In this document: positions 3,001-9,000 of the stretch, in pieces
Position numbering within the stretch: the stretch's first letter is position 1
Layout: each line of letters opens with the position of its first letter
Origin: a virus
Taxonomy: Duplodnaviria > Heunggongvirae > Uroviricota > Caudoviricetes
Reading direction: 5' to 3' (one strand)
Virus record (IMG/VR): IMGVR_UViG_2657245634_000007
Location: 1-17,758 of that record
DNA length: 17,758 nucleotides
Made by a program: the position numbers

Positions 3001-6000
3001 CATCAGTTTTGCACCTTTGACGCCATATGCTGCGCATGCATCCCAGACATTACCGAGGATCTTGCTACTCATACGACACCTCCCAGACGCTTAAACATTT
3101 TTCCGGACTGAAACGCCACCAGCGGGTAACTCAGGGTATAAGTACGCCCCTGCACCTGGCAGACAACCTTCTGACTTTCTGCATTGACCAGGCAAACCCG
3201 CAGAACGAGGCCGTTGCTGGTGGTAAACCACTGCCCCACTCGGGGGCAACGGTTGTATCGGTGATACAGGAAATTAACGATGTGGCGGATCATGGACGCA
3301 CCTCCGCCGTAGTTACGTATTTAACCGGGCTACCTTTCATTGAGATGGTTTCACACATCTCTGCCGCTTTCAGTTCCGCTGTTTTTCTGGATTTATAGCG
3401 ACGGTGCCAGACAGATACATCCGTGCGAACTGATACATCGTTTCTGTATTCCGTAGTGGAGATGATGATTTCGTAACTAATCATGGGCGAACCTCCTTGT
3501 CAGAACCATTCAGCCTGGAATCAACAAGTGCAGCGCCAAAAACAGCATCACCAACACGGTCGTACAGTTTGCTAGCCAGCGGAGATTCAACGGCCTTAAG
3601 CATTGGATAAAGCTGGCTTGTCCAGATTTGATGGATTTCACGCAAATGCAGGTATACGCCTCTGGCGTTTCGTGCGACAGCTGACATATCAACCGCGTCA
3701 GCACCAGATAAATTCTTCTCCATCTGGTTAAAGGCGTTGATGTATGCCTCTTTGAACTGGGCAGCACGTTTACCAGTGAAGCCCATGGCAAGAAACGCAA
3801 AACCGTCGCGGGTGATTTGGTAACAAGGGAGTTTGCGGCCTGATGCGTCGGTGTATTCACTTAACACAAAATTGTGTTCAGTAAATTCAGCGGAACATTC
3901 GAGGTTTCTAATTCTATCTAAAACCCGCTCATGCCGTTTAGTAAAGTAATTAGCTACTGCAAGAGATGTGGTGACAACGCGACCATTGATAATCGTGATT
4001 TCAGGGCGAGATTGGGTTGGGAGAGTAGTCATGGTGACAGCCCCTATGTTGAATTCAATGAACTCACCACCAAGGCTTTCCACGACCATATAGGTGGTGA
4101 GACGTACAGGGGTGGAAATACCGGTCAACATAGAACCCGGCCCAACCGAAGTTGGCCCTGCACGCCCCACCATAATTTGGGCGTAACGATGCTCATGACA
4201 CGAAAAAACCGCATGAGCGCGGTTGTGCTCTATATTGAATTTCGGGTTTCCACGCCCGGCACCCGCTTTATAAGGTGCAGAGACAGTGTAACGTCCCGAA
4301 ATTGCAGAATCAATATTTGGTCTTGAAATGATCATATAGCTGCTGATATCTTTAGAACTGTTCTTGGATGTTTCGGAGCCGTTTTATGCGAAACAGCTCC
4401 CCGTTATTGATGTTGAGTGAGCCGGGTTACTCCCGGCTTTTTTTCATCGCTGCCAACCAATAACCTGAAATAACCCCATTTTCGGGTGATACCAGCGAGT
4501 CCCTCGCGGTTCTGCTTCCTCCATAACCCGATAAAAAGCAGCCATAAACGGTTCCACAGCAACAATTGCGCGACGTGACAACAATCCGTCCGGCGTCATG
4601 AACTCATGGGTGTCTGTAGGAATCTGATAGGCGTTCACCAGATTGCGGCATTTATCATCTGACAAACCGGTTTTTGCTTTCAGTTGGCGATATCCGGCAT
4701 AGCCCTCACGAATAGTGCCCTTTTTAATTTGCTCGACTGTTTCAGCAACGTGGCTGACTTTTTCTTCCACCTGAGTGATCCGTTTCTGTTGGCGAACGGC
4801 TTCAAGAGCCATCGCGGCAACCATTTCGATTTCGCTCATTGGCTTACGGATCTGTTCTTCCAGTTCGCGCCAGCGATCTACCAGGCTAGCAGTGAATTCA
4901 GGGCAGAGCTGTGCGACGACAATGATGCTGTCGCGCTTACCTTGTTCTCCTTCAAACAGGTAATGCTCATATTGAACTTTAAAACCTAAGTTATTGATTT
5001 TCTCGGAAACAGCCATTGGCGGTTTCCGGATGATGTTTTTAGCAACCAGGCGTTCGATACTACGTTTAACATCTGAGTGCTGACTACCCACCAGCTCTGC
5101 GATCTCAACGCTGGTCATGGATGCTTTGTCGTTAAAAATTGCGGTGTTCACTGCCATCTCCTTACGGATAAATTCTTTTAAGATTCCGCACATTCGTACT
5201 TATTGGTGCCGAACCTTCCTTCAGTTATCCTTTTGATCCCTATAAACAAAAGAACCAAAGGAGGTTCGACATGAAAGTTCAGGCCGTTGGTTTATTCTGG
5301 TTTCGCGATGCGATTCAGTATCATGAGCTCAAAAATATTTTTACTGATGCTGATGTGCTCTCCGACAGTTACACCGAGTGGAAACACGACGCTGAAAAAT
5401 TGATTAAGCGTGTCGAAAGAGGCGGGCAACGAGTTATTAAAGTTGAAGCGGATACAGCCGAGTTCATCACCTGGTGTACAAGCGAAGGCATTGGAATCAA
5501 TGCCGAAGGTAGAATGCAGTTCGCATCCTTTAAGGCTTACCAACAACTTCTCAGCGAACGCTAATGTGATCGGGGCAATCGAAATGGTTGTCCCATCGTA
5601 TTTAATAGTTATTTTTTCGCTCATATCACCACCATCACTTCCCATCTTCCGTGTGCGCTAGGCTTGGGTGTGTATATGGAATGCTCGGATCCAAATGACA
5701 AAGAATGGCAACATCCTCCGGAACACCTCGCGTTTTCCACTTTCCAACACCTTGACTGCCACGAGGCCTTCCTTTCTTTGGGAACCTGCGACCAATAGCG
5801 GCATTGGTTTTAAATTGAATTTTTAATATTTCATAAAGGGTCATTCTTTAGTCTCACACCAGATACTTTGTTATCCAACGATGTTAACCACAGGAATCCA
5901 AAGTATCAAGAAATTCTGTTACTTTAGTATCAACAACCATGAGAGGAGAAGAAAAATGAAGTCTTTAGGTGAACGTCTCATCAACGCACGGCAAAAAGCT

Positions 6001-9000
6001 GGGTTAACACAAGATGCGTTGGCTAAAAAAGCTGGGATCACCAGAGTTGCAATCAGTAAAGCCGAGCAAGGCCTTACAAAAAGTTTCAACGGTGACACCC
6101 TTTTTAAAGTTGCAGCTGCACTGCGGTGTTCACCGCAGTGGCTTCAGAACGGAGATGAAAAAGATAAGCATTGGGAAAATAATGTTAAGAGCTGCCCACA
6201 GAGAGACACAGCACACTCTTACCCTGTAATTAACTGGGTTCAGGCAGGATTATTCGCAACTTCTGGTGATGACTACAACATGTATGATCAGGATAATTGG
6301 AGGCATTCTGTAAAATACGCTGGTGAGAGGGGGTTCTGGCTGGAAGTGCACGGAGACTCAATGACTTCGCCCGTAGGAATAACATTTCCTGAAGGAATGT
6401 CGATCCTTGTCAACCCAGATAAAGAAGTTTTTTCAGGGTGTTACGTCATCGCCAGAAAAAAATCCACCAATGAAGCAACATTCAAAAAATATATTTCTGA
6501 CATGGGAAAGGCGTTTCTAAAGCCCCTTAATCCACAATATCCAATCATAGAAATGGACAATGATTGCGAAATAGTAGGTGTTGTGGTTGATGCCAGGTGG
6601 GATATTTTCTGACCAGACACAAAACACAAAACACAAAAAGAAACCAAAGTATCAAAAATCACTTGCCACACCTTGATACCTTAGTTACCATAAAACAAAG
6701 TTCGTAACTGAGGTATCATCTCATGATCAATAAAGCTACAACTCTTGACTGTCTCGAAGAACTGAAAAACCTCGGCAGCCTCATTACACTAATAGCAAAA
6801 GCAACACCTGATGCTACGCTCTCTAGCGATATAGAGTCATGCGCAGGGCTGGCATGGGATATGACAAATAGCATATCCAGAAAGCTATCGTCAGCAATGC
6901 TTTTACAGAATAAAAATTCTGCAATCAACAACCGTCTTCGCACCCAACGCGAAGCCTGCGGCTTAACAACCGCCGAACTCGCCAGGCTGCTCGATCTCGA
7001 TGAAGAAATTATCATCCAGTGGGAGAGCGGAGAGTATGAACCAACTATCAGTATGCTTATCCCACTGGCAAATATTCTTGGCTGCGATCCGATGTGGCTG
7101 TTAACTGGTAAACCAACAGGTGGGGATACTTGCGCATGAAAAACTGTGATGCTTACCATATTTGTCTCATTGGTGAATTGCTTGATTTCATACAAAAAAG
7201 CACTGCGCGCAATAATAAAAATATAACATATGGTGATCTGGTAATAATTTCAGAGGATATAAAGAGCATCGCTCTTAAATTCAAGAGCGACGCGAGTATT
7301 GATGACGCTATTTACGCTTATCTTGCGAAAATAATTGACGGATCCAAAATCCAGCCTCTGGATGAACCTCGTCAGTGAAAAACTCCTTTGATGAAGATGA
7401 GAACTGCTTCATAAACTTTACTTTATCTTCAGGTGAAACTACCTGACGAATTAATGCGGAGATAGCAACTTTGTGCCAAATTAATTCTTTTTTGAGTTCT
7501 GAAATCTCTTTTTCGAGTTGCTCTGCGTTAATCATTTATCCTCCATTGAGAGCTGAATTGAAAATGGGGACCAACACGCGGCTACGTGTGGTCGTGCGCC
7601 GGACACGGATAAGCATCCGGTAACTGATTATCAATCATTGCGGAAACAGTCTCAATATGAAAACACTTCTGAGACTCGCTATATAGCAGGACATATAAGT
7701 CAGCTGAGGAAGCCATGAAAAAGTTCGAAAACATAACTGTTCTCCATGTTGATGACTTTGATTATACAAACCCGGAACTTCTCCCGGAGGTTGTAAAGGC
7801 AATAGATGTTGCCGATATAGTGATTAGAGAAAAGAGAATTGTCAAAAACAGGCTCGCATGCACTTCAGGAGCAATGACAGAAACAACCTCACAGCAAGAT
7901 AATTACGAAGGCATTTGTCTGGAGCCTGATTCATTTGCGGTAAATGTTTATCATTTATTGCATGCAACACAGGTATTACATATGTCCAGTAATCACGAAA
8001 CGAAAACACTCGGCAGCGAAATTCTGAGTTTTGCATGTGAGTATACAAAAGCTGCTGCCGAAAAAGAATTAGCGCAATAACAACAAATATGCCCTGAACG
8101 TTTATTGCGGTTTTATCGCCGGGGATTGTTACAACCTTAATCCACAGGAGGCTTTATTGTGACTTTTATAAAGAATATGGCATCACACAAGACCGCCTGC
8201 CTTATTGCACAATACGGTGAAAATTACATGCATATTGCCTGCTTATTTCTGCGTAAAGCATACGGGAGATAATAATGCATCAGAAAACAGCAGAACACGA
8301 ACAAACCAGAGTATTGCTGACCATCAAAAACGGGAAAGTAATATTCATTCGCCATGTTCATGACGATGAACTTGTAGGAACTCTTTCAACATTCCTGTTT
8401 ATTGCAGAAAGGGCAGGATATGACGTTATTGCACCAGCAGATGAAGATGAAGATGAAGATGAAGATGAAGATGAAGATGAGGAATAAATATCATGCAATA
8501 CGATGAATTCCAGGCTGAAGCAACAGCCAATGGTATACGAACTGGCAGTATGACGATTGATTATCACGACGCCATACGTCGTCTGGATGCCGGAGAATTC
8601 GATACTCCTAATGTGCGAGGTTTACGTATCCTTCAGTGTCTGGCGCAAGCCGACGAAGCAGGATTACTGGGTAAACTTCCGGTTGAGATGAAGGTTGCTC
8701 AGTGGCGATGGTTGTATGTGACGACATTCATCAACGAAGAAGAAGACAAGAACGGCACAATTGATATCTTGAATGAACACGGAACAACTGAACACGCCGT
8801 GGTATATAACGGGATGTATGGGTTTATGACGATATATCCCGGCCCCATTCGATTTGCCTTACAACAGTATATTGAATGGAATTTAATTCAAAAATACGGC
8901 GAAGCTGAAGGAATGGGAAGAGCGCTGTTTCTTTATCAGAAAATGCTCACTACTTCCCCTGATAAAGGTTTCATTCTTTCAGATATGGGTCGAGAAGGGC

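What the first reader, a model, noticed from the sequence alone, without database searches (positions are those of the whole stretch)
5881..6720. Repressor gene bracketed by the same AGTATCAA box on both sides
The exact 8-mer AGTATCAA occurs at 5902, 5926 and 6648, with an inverted copy at 6673 and a near copy at 6713. An exact 8-mer is expected well under once by chance in this window, and all copies cluster immediately upstream and downstream of the cI-like gene, overlapping candidate -35 and spacer elements of divergent promoters. This suggests shared oR and oL half-sites for the LexA-type repressor, with a sequence unlike the lambda, 434 or P22 operators. cI is followed directly by the pL-like region with no rexAB.
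Basis: seen in the sequence. Interest (0 to 1): 0.45.

Follow-up and report, generated by a model that had tools for sequence, protein, structure and literature searches.

The report
Operator sites of a phiP27-type prophage repressor
The repeated AGTATCAA boxes are very probably the well-conserved halves of six 18-bp binding sites for this prophage's lambda/P22-type repressor: an ordinary lysis-lysogeny switch whose DNA target was not described in any paper I could search.

Summary
AGTATCAA is exact at 5902, 5926 and 6648. A 7/8 inverted copy lies at 6673-6680 and a looser copy at 6712-6719.

The 8-mer is not the whole unit. Each box is the better half of an 18-bp pseudo-dyad, TTGATAC-N4-GTATCAA (7+4+7). 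Three sites lie between the Cro-like gene and the repressor gene (5860-5877, 5892-5909, 5916-5933). Three lie after the repressor gene (6638-6655, 6673-6690, 6702-6719). They overlap sigma-70-like promoter elements.

The window is a phiP27-like E. coli prophage. Its repressor has an HTH domain and an S24 domain, and is 44% identical to P22 C2. P22 operators have the same 7+4+7 layout and similar positions.

The site arms are far more conserved than the rest of the spacers. Relatives in Yersinia, Raoultella, Photorhabdus and Xenorhabdus share the recognition helix, and they keep the sites at identical spacing. Relatives with a different helix have different half-sites.

No binding data exist. 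This is a new member of a known kind, of low to moderate interest.

One open point: sites b and c also form a 15-bp inverted repeat that could mask the next gene's ribosome-binding site in RNA.

The parts
5635..5844 (-). Cro-like gene (69 aa), transcribed divergently from the repressor gene
5860..5877 (.). oR site f (OR1-like position): CAGATAC TTTG TTATCCA
   Evidence: It lies 3 bp beyond the -10 of the leftward promoter-like site, over the expected transcription start. The position is conserved 32 bp from site d in seven of eight relatives compared (35 bp in Y. similis). Which half is the consensus half flips between relatives, as expected for a dyad.
5881..5909 (-). pR-like promoter candidate for the Cro-like gene: -35 TTGATA (5909-5904), 17-bp spacer, -10 TAACAT (5886-5881)
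   Evidence: Consensus scan. The -35 is the TATCAA end of site d. By my reading of the A2 alignment rows, a TAnnnT hexamer sits at the aligned -10 position in the seven relatives I checked. The transcription start has not been mapped.
5892..5909 (.). oR site d (OR2-like position): AGGAATC CAAA GTATCAA.
   Evidence: AAAGT-TC-A is invariant across the eight relatives in alignment A2.
5916..5933 (.). oR site e (OR3-like position): CTGTTAC TTTA GTATCAA.
   Evidence: TG-TACTTT-GT-TC is invariant in A2. It lies 24 bp from site d in all relatives.
5956..6612 (+). Repressor gene (218 aa): N-terminal HTH_3 domain and C-terminal Peptidase_S24 domain
   Evidence: Pfam HTH_3 at 1.7e-14 and S24 at 3.2e-22. 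The C-terminal domain aligns to lambda CI (PDB 3bdn, 8.7e-34) and the N-terminal domain to 434 Cro and P22 C2. It is 44% identical to P22 C2 over 97% of its length. Ala97-Gly98, Ser135 and Lys178 are invariant in the family alignment. AGGAG at 5944-5948 lies 7 nt before the ATG.
6617..6637 (+). (ACACAAA)x3 repeat directly after the repressor stop codon. No intrinsic terminator here.
   Evidence: (family D9). Copy number is 1-3 among close relatives. More distant relatives have a hairpin-plus-T-run terminator at this position instead.
6638..6655 (.). oL site a (OL2-like position, upstream of the -35): AAGAAAC CAAA GTATCAA.
   Evidence: In the 86%-identical relative L067 this site is the perfect dyad GATAC TTTA GTATC.
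6663..6691 (+). pL-like promoter candidate: -35 TTGCCA (6663-6668), 17-bp spacer, -10 TACCAT (6686-6691)
   Evidence: Consensus scan. CTTG of the -35 is invariant and the -10 region is conserved (TAC invariant) in seven relatives. The backbone is the same as at P22 pL, CAAAAAT(A)CACTTGaCC.
6673..6690 (.). oL site b (OL1-like position, covering the spacer and the -10): TTGATAC CTTA GTTACCA.
   Evidence: GATAC--TAGTTAC is invariant in A3. It lies 34-36 bp from site a in all relatives.
6702..6719 (.). oL site c (downstream of the -10): TCGTAAC TGAG GTATCAT. It overlaps the Shine-Dalgarno GAGG at 6710-6713.
   Evidence: A site at the equivalent place in Photorhabdus and Xenorhabdus relatives reads GAAAC CAAA GTATC. 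Yersinia and Raoultella relatives have no such site.
6674..6718 (+). 15-nt inverted repeat formed by sites b and c (6674-6688 / 6704-6718), with 15 nt between the arms
   Evidence: Repeat I4, 93% complementary. Folded as RNA it gives -20 kcal/mol, z = -5.1 to -6.7.
6723..7139 (+). First gene after the pL-like promoter: 138-aa HTH_3 protein
   Evidence: Pfam HTH_3 at 2.6e-11. PHROG 4739, and 4836 'CII-like regulator'.

Best explanation
The boxes are the consensus halves of 18-bp, two-fold pseudo-symmetric operators, TTGATAC-N4-GTATCAA: 7 bp, 4 central A/T-rich bp, 7 bp. The 218-aa CI/C2-type repressor encoded at 5956-6612 would bind them as a dimer. The Cro-like protein encoded at 5635-5844 probably binds them too.

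Three sites form an oR between the two divergent genes:
- f at 5860-5877
- d at 5892-5909
- e at 5916-5933

Two or three sites form an oL just after the repressor gene:
- a at 6638-6655
- b at 6673-6690
- possibly c at 6702-6719

In a lysogen, repressor bound at d (over the -35) and f (over the start site) would shut the leftward pR-like promoter. That promoter drives the Cro-like gene, the antirepressor genes and the replication genes. Repressor at b (over the spacer and -10), helped by a and perhaps c, would shut the pL-like promoter of the 138-aa HTH gene and the genes leading to xis and int. Site e lies closest to the repressor gene, in the OR3 position, where high repressor levels would limit the repressor's own synthesis. 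Induction would occur by RecA-stimulated self-cleavage at Ala97-Gly98.

Shown here: the sequences, their clustering, their conservation, their co-variation with the recognition helix, and the domain content of the proteins.

Inferred: binding itself, the promoter assignments, cooperativity, autoregulation and cleavage.
For: 1. Clustering. Six matches fall within about 220 bp, against a background of 5 in 17.5 kb of the window and 12 in 42 kb of phiP27. Poisson P is about 8e-11. GWWWC-N4-GTATC has 5 hits against 0.15 expected.

2. Two-fold symmetry. In 40 sites from seven loci, the symmetrised half-site has G3 in 80 of 80 halves, C7 in 95%, A6 in 88% and A4 in 76%. The central four bases are 87% A/T. 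Relative L067 has a perfect GATAC TTTA GTATC. At site f the consensus half sits on the left in E. coli and on the right in the Yersinia, Raoultella, Photorhabdus and Xenorhabdus relatives.

3. Conservation. Among 46 distinct relatives (>=86% repressor identity), 11 of 60 arm columns vary, against 96 of 137 columns in the rest of the spacers. Fisher P is 1.4e-11. For comparison, 148 of 219 third codon positions vary.

4. Cross-genus conservation with the same helix. Relatives of 56-64% identity carry (V/I)TRVAISKAE and keep three upstream sites spaced 32 and 24 bp apart. They also keep sites a and b 34-36 bp apart flanking a CTTG -35, while the sequence between sites diverges.

5. Co-variation. 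A Serratia relative with helix SRMAISKIE has TAAAC-N4-GTTTA sites. P22-type repressors (SN[VA]AISQWE) have TTAAG-N4-CTTAA. Proteus and Morganella relatives (NRVTVTGWE) have TGTAGGA-N4-TCCTACA. All use the same 7+4+7 frame.

6. Match to a characterised homologue. P22 C2 is 44% identical. Its six operators are 18 bp, contacted at positions 2-7 and 12-17 and not contacted at 8-11 (PMC4267663). In the P22 record they occupy equivalent places: three lie between cro and c2, and OL2 and OL1 lie 35 bp apart around the pL -35.

7. Overlap with promoter-like elements.

8. Complete switch parts. The repressor has HTH and S24 domains with the Ala-Gly, Ser and Lys residues. The divergent gene has a Cro fold.
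Against: - No binding, footprint, transcription-start or reporter data exist for this repressor in anything I could reach. The 2002 phiP27 genome paper is not in the held library.
- Every site has one good and one degenerate half. A blind search for near-perfect 18-bp palindromes does not recover them in this clade.
- Site c has a G-rich centre (TGAG) and a 3/5 left arm. It overlaps the Shine-Dalgarno sequence and is absent from the Yersinia and Raoultella relatives, so it may not be an operator.
- Site spacings of 32, 35 and 29 bp differ from the 23-25 bp seen in P22 oR. Cooperative pairing cannot simply be copied from P22 or lambda.
- I could not locate the maintenance promoter (pRM equivalent) convincingly.
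- The Cro-like gene, the repressor gene and the 138-aa HTH gene travel together in the close clade. Co-variation alone therefore does not prove which of them binds. The assignment to the repressor rests on the P22 parallel.
Confidence: 0.85

Rival explanations
1. Sites b and c act mainly or additionally at the RNA level. Their 15-bp inverted repeat would fold into a hairpin that buries the Shine-Dalgarno sequence of gene 6723. The hairpin could form only on transcripts reading through from the repressor gene, because no terminator follows it. Transcripts that start at the pL-like promoter would begin inside the loop and lack the 5' arm. The gene would then be translated only after derepression.
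For: - The inverted repeat at 6674-6688 / 6704-6718 is 93% complementary.
- The RNA fold is -20 kcal/mol, z = -5.1 to -6.7. The same holds in L064 (-20.1) and L067 (-19.3, with a 17-bp stem).
- A leader starting near 6697 is unstructured (z = +1.55).
- No terminator-like site lies between 6613 and 6722.
- Relatives that do have a terminator after the repressor gene lack the strong hairpin (-7.8 and -6.5 kcal/mol, not significant) or lack site c altogether.
- In the E. coli lineage the left arm of c is GTAAC. That is a worse operator arm than the GAAAC seen in Photorhabdus, but it is a perfect complement of b's GTTAC.
- Two substitutions seen in relatives keep pairing as G-U.
Against: - The three hairpin-bearing loci are close relatives, so this is one evolutionary event.
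- No double compensatory change was seen, and one relative (L037) has a disrupting change.
- Most of the complementarity follows automatically from two inverted operators sharing a consensus.
- Read-through from the repressor gene and the pL start site are both unproven.
- No Rfam family matches here.
Confidence: 0.2
2. The boxes are bound not by the S24 repressor but by another regulator of the module. Candidates are the 138-aa HTH protein at 6723-7139, or the Cro-like protein alone.
For: - All three genes are syntenic in the close clade, so conservation of the sites does not separate them.
- PHROG labels a related family of the 138-aa protein 'CII-like regulator'.
Against: - P22 has no homologue of the 138-aa protein at that place (gene 24 follows pL). 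Yet P22 has operators of the same frame and positions, and these are known to bind C2.
- Half-site sequence tracks the repressor's recognition helix across lineages.
- Sharing of operators between Cro and CI is the norm, so Cro binding would add to the main explanation rather than replace it.
Confidence: 0.05
3. The boxes are not protein sites. They are promoter hexamers (TTGATA as a -35) and chance or duplicated A/T-rich spacer sequence.
For: - TATCAA of site d reads as the -35 TTGATA on the minus strand.
- The count of the exact 8-mer alone is only modestly significant, with 6 of 200 shuffles reaching it.
Against: - Only one of the six sites coincides with a -35.
- The partner half at exactly 4 bp always has G3, and usually A6 and C7.
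- Arms are far more conserved than the surrounding spacer, which includes the promoter elements.
- Positions are preserved across five genera.
Confidence: 0.03

Closest known systems
Phage P22 immunity region (C2 repressor, Cro, OR1-3 and OL1-3)
   Same: - The repressor is homologous along its full length, at 44% identity.
- Operators have the same 18-bp 7+4+7 frame with an A/T-rich uncontacted centre.
- Three sites lie between divergent cro and repressor genes, and the innermost pair is 24-25 bp apart.
- Two oL sites lie 35 bp apart around the pL -35, on a recognisably similar promoter backbone.
- The divergent gene has an all-alpha Cro fold.
   Different: - The half-site is TTGATAC rather than ATTTAAG, and the recognition helix is ITRVAISKAEQ rather than VSNVAISQWER. 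The two phages should therefore be heteroimmune.
- The sites are much more asymmetric.
- The outer oR site is 32 bp from the middle one, against 23 bp in P22. It sits over the start site rather than over the -10.
- The third oL site is downstream of the promoter here and upstream in P22.
- No terminator follows the repressor gene.
- pL drives an HTH protein rather than an N-like antiterminator (gene 24).
Phage lambda CI / OR-OL switch
   Same: - The C-terminal S24 and oligomerisation domain is closest to lambda CI (PDB 3bdn, 8.7e-34).
- The gene order is the same: cro, then oR, then cI, then oL/pL.
- Each region has a tripartite operator.
   Different: - From established knowledge, not re-read here: lambda operators are 17 bp and rexA-rexB lie between cI and pL.
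- Here the rex genes are absent and the operator frame is 18 bp.
- The N-terminal domain is closer to P22 C2 and 434 Cro than to lambda CI.
Stx phage operator regions (933W, H-19B)
   Same: They are lambdoid Stx-phage switches with variable operator numbers: 933W has 3 oR and 2 oL sites, and H-19B has 4 oR sites (review PMC8065619). The present immunity type also occurs in Stx1a, Stx2a and Stx2e phages.
   Different: The repressor lineage is different. Stx2a-phage CI proteins are only 33-36% identical. I found no published operator analysis for the phiP27 type.

Membership tests
Lambdoid CI/C2-type autocleavable prophage repressor switch | Repressor with an N-terminal Cro/C1-type HTH domain | tested here: met
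   Pfam HTH_3 at 1.7e-14, residues 10-63. Matches to the N-terminal domains of P22 C2 and 434 repressor and to 434 Cro in the PDB.
Lambdoid CI/C2-type autocleavable prophage repressor switch | C-terminal S24 (LexA-like) domain with an Ala-Gly cleavage site and a Ser/Lys dyad | tested here: met
   Pfam Peptidase_S24 at 3.2e-22. Aligns to the lambda CI C-terminal domain at about 1e-31. A97, G98, S135 and K178 are invariant across eight diverse relatives.
Lambdoid CI/C2-type autocleavable prophage repressor switch | Divergently transcribed small Cro-type gene next to the repressor gene | tested here: met
Lambdoid CI/C2-type autocleavable prophage repressor switch | Several dyad-symmetric operators between the cro and repressor genes, overlapping the early promoter(s) | tested here: met
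   Three 18-bp pseudo-dyads at 5860-5933. Site d covers the -35 and site f covers the start region of the promoter-like site TTGATA-N17-TAACAT. In silico only.
Lambdoid CI/C2-type autocleavable prophage repressor switch | A second operator cluster at the other early promoter (oL/pL) | tested here: met
   Sites a and b flank and cover TTGCCA-N17-TACCAT at 6663-6691. They are conserved in seven relatives. The third site, c, is uncertain.
Lambdoid CI/C2-type autocleavable prophage repressor switch | The repressor physically binds these sites and represses the promoters | not testable with these tools
   Needs gel shift or footprinting and reporter assays. Only comparative support is available here.
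Lambdoid CI/C2-type autocleavable prophage repressor switch | RecA-stimulated self-cleavage leading to SOS induction | not testable with these tools
   The catalytic and cleavage-site residues are present. Cleavage itself was not assayed.
P22 C2 operator class (same immunity specificity as P22) | 18-bp site, 7 bp + 4 uncontacted A/T-rich bp + 7 bp | tested here: met
   The symmetrised consensus is TTGATAC over positions 1-7 and the centre is 87% A/T. The P22 frame comes from PMC4267663 and from the P22 record.
P22 C2 operator class (same immunity specificity as P22) | Half-site ATTTAAG and recognition helix VSNVAISQWE | tested here: not met
   The half-site is TTGATAC and the helix is ITRVAISKAEQ. 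The architecture is the same but the specificity differs, so this phage is not of P22 immunity.
Cis-acting RNA hairpin that masks a ribosome-binding site | A stable stem including the Shine-Dalgarno sequence, supported by compensatory changes, on a transcript shown to exist | tested here: inconclusive
   The stem is stable (-20 kcal/mol, z about -5 to -7) and includes GAGG at 6710-6713. Only G-U-compatible single changes were seen, with no double compensatory change. The read-through transcript is not demonstrated.

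The most novel reading that the evidence does not exclude
The two promoter-proximal oL sites (b and c) have a second function in the E. coli lineage, which has lost the terminator after the repressor gene. On read-through transcripts from the repressor gene they would pair as a 15-bp hairpin that hides the ribosome-binding site of the first pL gene, the 138-aa HTH regulator. Transcripts started at pL would begin inside the loop and be translatable. The same DNA would then serve as protein operator and as an RNA translational insulator, letting the phage dispense with a terminator between the lysogenic and early-left transcription units.
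Probability: 0.2. Interest if true: 0.45.

Novelty: new member of a known kind. Interest (0 to 1): 0.25.

Why it matters
This immunity type occurs in 331 of 5,426 complete E. coli genomes. It also occurs in Stx2e phage phiP27 and in Stx1a- and Stx2a-converting phages integrated at yecE. Only 11 phage records carry this repressor at more than 90% identity. The next relatives among the phage records fall below 60% identity, the closest characterised one being P22 C2 at 44%.

A defined operator consensus, TTGATAC-N4-GTATCAA, gives three things:
- a concrete, testable map of the switch that controls induction of these prophages, and so toxin release
- a way to predict which prophages are homo-immune
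- one more natural example of how a P22-type HTH domain is retargeted within a fixed 7+4+7 operator frame

It does not change how such switches are understood.

Tried and rejected
- **Exact-word statistics alone.** The 8-mer count is only modestly significant, so I moved to dyad patterns and clustering.
- **Blind palindrome search.** A search for near-perfect 18-bp palindromes (at least 6 of 7 arm pairs) recovers P22-type and Proteus-type operators. It does not recover those of this clade, because each site has one degenerate half.
- **Literature.** The 2002 phiP27 genome paper (PMC127862) is not held. Searches for phiP27 with 'operator', and for the site sequences themselves, found nothing relevant; the sequence hits came from unrelated fields. 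A 2025 Stx2e paper does not mention operators.
- **Maintenance promoter.** TAGTAT at 5925-5930 and TACTTT at 5920-5925 are both possible -10 elements. Neither has a convincing -35, and neither places site d at a lambda-like activating distance. I left this open.
- **Rfam.** No family matches in the two spacers.

Full report
**What the window is**

The 1.6 kb around the finding is 100% identical to an E. coli O111:H21 chromosome. It is 95% identical to the Stx2e phage phiP27 and about 85% identical to Stx1a and Stx2a phages integrated at yecE. The region matches 331 of 5,426 complete E. coli genomes.

Gene order around the finding is as follows.
- On the minus strand: replication genes, two Rha/Ant-type genes, and a 69-aa ORF at 5635-5844.
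- On the plus strand: a 218-aa gene at 5956-6612 and a 138-aa HTH gene at 6723-7139. Further on come xis, int and the host yecE-side genes.

The 218-aa protein has HTH_3 and Peptidase_S24 domains.
- Its C-terminal domain aligns to lambda CI at 8.7e-34.
- Its N-terminal domain aligns to 434 Cro and P22 C2.
- Ala97-Gly98, Ser135 and Lys178 are invariant across relatives.

The best characterised full-length homologue is P22 C2, at 44% identity. Among 50,697 phage records only 11 carry this repressor at more than 90% identity, and all other matches are below 60%.

**Checking the observation**

AGTATCAA is exact at 5902, 5926 and 6648 and occurs nowhere else. Shuffles give 0.49 expected copies, and 6 of 200 shuffles reach three.
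- The copy at 6673-6680 is GGTATCAA on the minus strand, a 7/8 match.
- The copy at 6712-6719 is GGTATCAT.
- A sixth, inverted copy at 5860-5867 was missed.

The repeat finder shows that the shared sequence is longer than the 8-mer: a 26-nt pair 5887-5912/6633-6658 (81% identical, family D2) that includes CCAAAGTATCAA at 5898-5909 and 6644-6655. It also shows inverted pairs at 5862-5870/5899-5907, 6642-6655/6673-6686 and 6674-6688/6704-6718.

**The real unit**

Each box has a degenerate partner exactly 4 bp upstream, which gives G-W-W-W-C N4 GTATC.

| Site | 14-bp core | 18-bp coordinates |
|---|---|---|
| f | GATAC TTTG TTATC | 5860-5877 |
| d | GAATC CAAA GTATC | 5892-5909 |
| e | GTTAC TTTA GTATC | 5916-5933 |
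| a | GAAAC CAAA GTATC | 6638-6655 |
| b | GATAC CTTA GTTAC | 6673-6690 |
| c | GTAAC TGAG GTATC | 6702-6719 |

Statistical support is strong.
- GWWWC-N4-GTATC has 5 hits in the window, all in the two spacers, against 0.15 expected. None of 200 shuffles reaches 5.
- GATAC-N4-GTATC with up to two mismatches has 15 hits against 4.7 expected, and six are these sites.
- I scanned the 18-mer TTGATAC-N4-GTATCAA with up to 4 of 14 mismatches. It finds the six sites plus 5 others in the window. In the whole phiP27 genome it finds the six homologous sites plus 12 others. The Poisson P for six hits in 220 bp is about 8e-11.
- Of the 35 GTATC pentamers in the window, the six in the spacers all have G at partner position 3 and mostly A/T-rich centres. 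Those elsewhere mostly do not.

**Conservation among close relatives**

I compared 67 loci, giving 46 distinct sequences, with at least 86% repressor identity.
- Only 11 of 60 arm columns vary, against 96 of 137 columns in the rest of the two spacers. The odds ratio is 0.10 and Fisher P is 1.4e-11.
- For comparison, 148 of 219 third codon positions vary.
- Most changes inside sites fall in the central four bases.
- In L067 (86% identity), site a is a perfect GATAC TTTA GTATC.

The HTH region, residues 17-46, is identical in the 86-100% relatives.

**Cross-genus relatives and co-variation**

A scan of species-representative genomes found relatives of intermediate identity: Yersinia pekkanenii 64%, Raoultella 63%, Photorhabdus 59% and Xenorhabdus 56%. 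All have the helix (V/I)TRVAISKAE.
- All keep three upstream sites with centre spacings of 32 and 24 bp. Y. similis, at 52%, has 35 and 24 bp.
- All keep sites a and b 34-36 bp apart around an invariant CTTG -35.
- The sequence between the sites is scrambled.
- At site f the consensus half is on the left in E. coli and on the right in those genera. This fits a dyad and does not fit an oriented 8-mer.

Pooling 40 sites from seven loci gives the symmetrised half-site TTGATAC. G3 is present in 80 of 80 halves, C7 in 95%, A6 in 88% and A4 in 76%. The centres are 87% A/T.

Relatives with other helices carry other half-sites in the same frame.

| Relative | Recognition helix | Site |
|---|---|---|
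| Serratia | SRMAISKIE | TAAAC-N4-GTTTA |
| P22-type | SN[VA]AISQWE | TTAAG-N4-CTTAA |
| Proteus / Morganella | NRVTVTGWE | TGTAGGA-N4-TCCTACA |

**Comparison with P22**

P22 repressor recognises six rotationally symmetric sites. It contacts positions 2-7 and 12-17 and does not contact 8-11 (PMC4267663). Read from the P22 record, these are ATTTAAG-N4-CTTAAAT.
- Three lie between cro and c2, with centres 23 and 25 bp apart.
- OL2 and OL1 lie 35 bp apart around the pL -35.

The present oL has the same backbone: ...GTATCAAAAATCACTTGCCA... here, against ...CTTCAAAAATACACTTGACC... in P22.

The differences are these.
- The half-site sequence and the recognition helix differ.
- The sites are more asymmetric.
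- Site f lies 9 bp further out, over the start site rather than over the -10.
- The third oL site is downstream of the promoter rather than upstream.
- No terminator follows the repressor gene.
- pL drives an HTH protein rather than an N-like antiterminator.

**Promoters**

Consensus scans give two candidates.
- On the minus strand: TTGATA (5909-5904), 17 bp, TAACAT (5886-5881).
- On the plus strand: TTGCCA (6663-6668), 17 bp, TACCAT (6686-6691).

Site d starts at the -35 of the first, and site f covers its expected start. Site b covers the spacer and -10 of the second. Both sets of hexamers are conserved in position across the genera, by my reading of the alignment rows for the first promoter. 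I could not place the maintenance promoter with confidence.

**The Cro-position gene**

The 69-aa ORF has no Pfam match and belongs to a PHROG of unknown function. Its family is narrow: 37 clusters, all named examples of which come from Enterobacterales and are annotated 'hypothetical'.

**The open point**

Sites b and c are also the arms of a 15-nt inverted repeat.
- As RNA the repeat folds at -20 kcal/mol, z = -5 to -7.8, in the three E. coli-lineage loci.
- The fold includes the Shine-Dalgarno GAGG of gene 6723.
- The E. coli lineage has no terminator after the repressor gene.
- Relatives that do have a terminator either lack site c, or carry a better operator-like site c (GAAAC CAAA GTATC) that does not form a significant hairpin.

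This fits a hairpin that masks the ribosome-binding site on read-through transcripts. However, it rests on a single lineage, and no compensatory double changes were seen. I rate it at 0.2.

**Verdict**

This is a previously undescribed operator specificity, as far as the held literature shows. The switch itself is thoroughly conventional. It is a new member of a known kind, with interest of about 0.25.

Noticed in passing
window 4090-4278 (- strand): Two Rfam hits above gathering score lie inside the annotated 284-aa 'Rha/Ant' ORF 3481-4335(-). One is isrK Hfq-binding RNA (RF01394, 4202-4278, 61.6 bits). The other is C4 antisense RNA (RF01695, 4090-4177, 82.4 bits). From general knowledge, this resembles the c4-icd-ant (immI) antirepressor control of P1/P7 and the IsrK-AnrP module of Gifsy-1. 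It would be a second layer of immunity control, and the 5' part of the annotated ORF may be RNA genes rather than coding sequence.
   Followed up: no
window 6617-6637: (ACACAAA)x3 lies directly after the repressor stop codon. Copy number is 1, 2 or 3 among otherwise near-identical relatives. This C/A-rich, G-poor tract replaces the intrinsic terminator that more distant relatives have at this place. A possible Rho-loading site is speculation only.
   Followed up: partly
window 27-47: Twelve N characters (masked or ambiguous bases) near the start of the window.
   Followed up: no
window 5635-5844 (-) and homologues (P0001-P0037): The Cro-like protein family is small: 37 clusters at 90% identity, all named examples of which are from Enterobacterales and annotated hypothetical, with no Pfam family. 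By profile alignment it carries a 5-residue basic insertion (within PKKGRPRG) in the HTH region relative to P22 Cro. The C-terminal tail varies in length among near-identical prophages, from 69 to 83 aa.
   Followed up: partly
window 6723-7139 (+): The first gene after the pL-like promoter is a 138-aa protein with a C-terminal HTH_3 domain (PHROG 4739; related to a 'CII-like regulator' PHROG). It sits where P22 and lambda have an N-type antiterminator. No N-like gene was seen at this position.
   Followed up: no
L001 12751-13719 (E. coli O111:H21 15A prophage): The otherwise identical prophage in NZ_CP077477 carries an IS903B insertion in the early-left region, followed by truncated or frameshifted ORFs. 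I did not check whether the window has the same insertion.
   Followed up: no
L100 (Proteus sp. FME41): This locus pairs a Cro-like protein of the phiP27 type (MNLYEILKGIHKTNAAIGKAYP...) with a repressor that is only 42% identical and has a different helix (VSRVTISKIE). This suggests the cro and repressor genes of this module can be shuffled.
   Followed up: no
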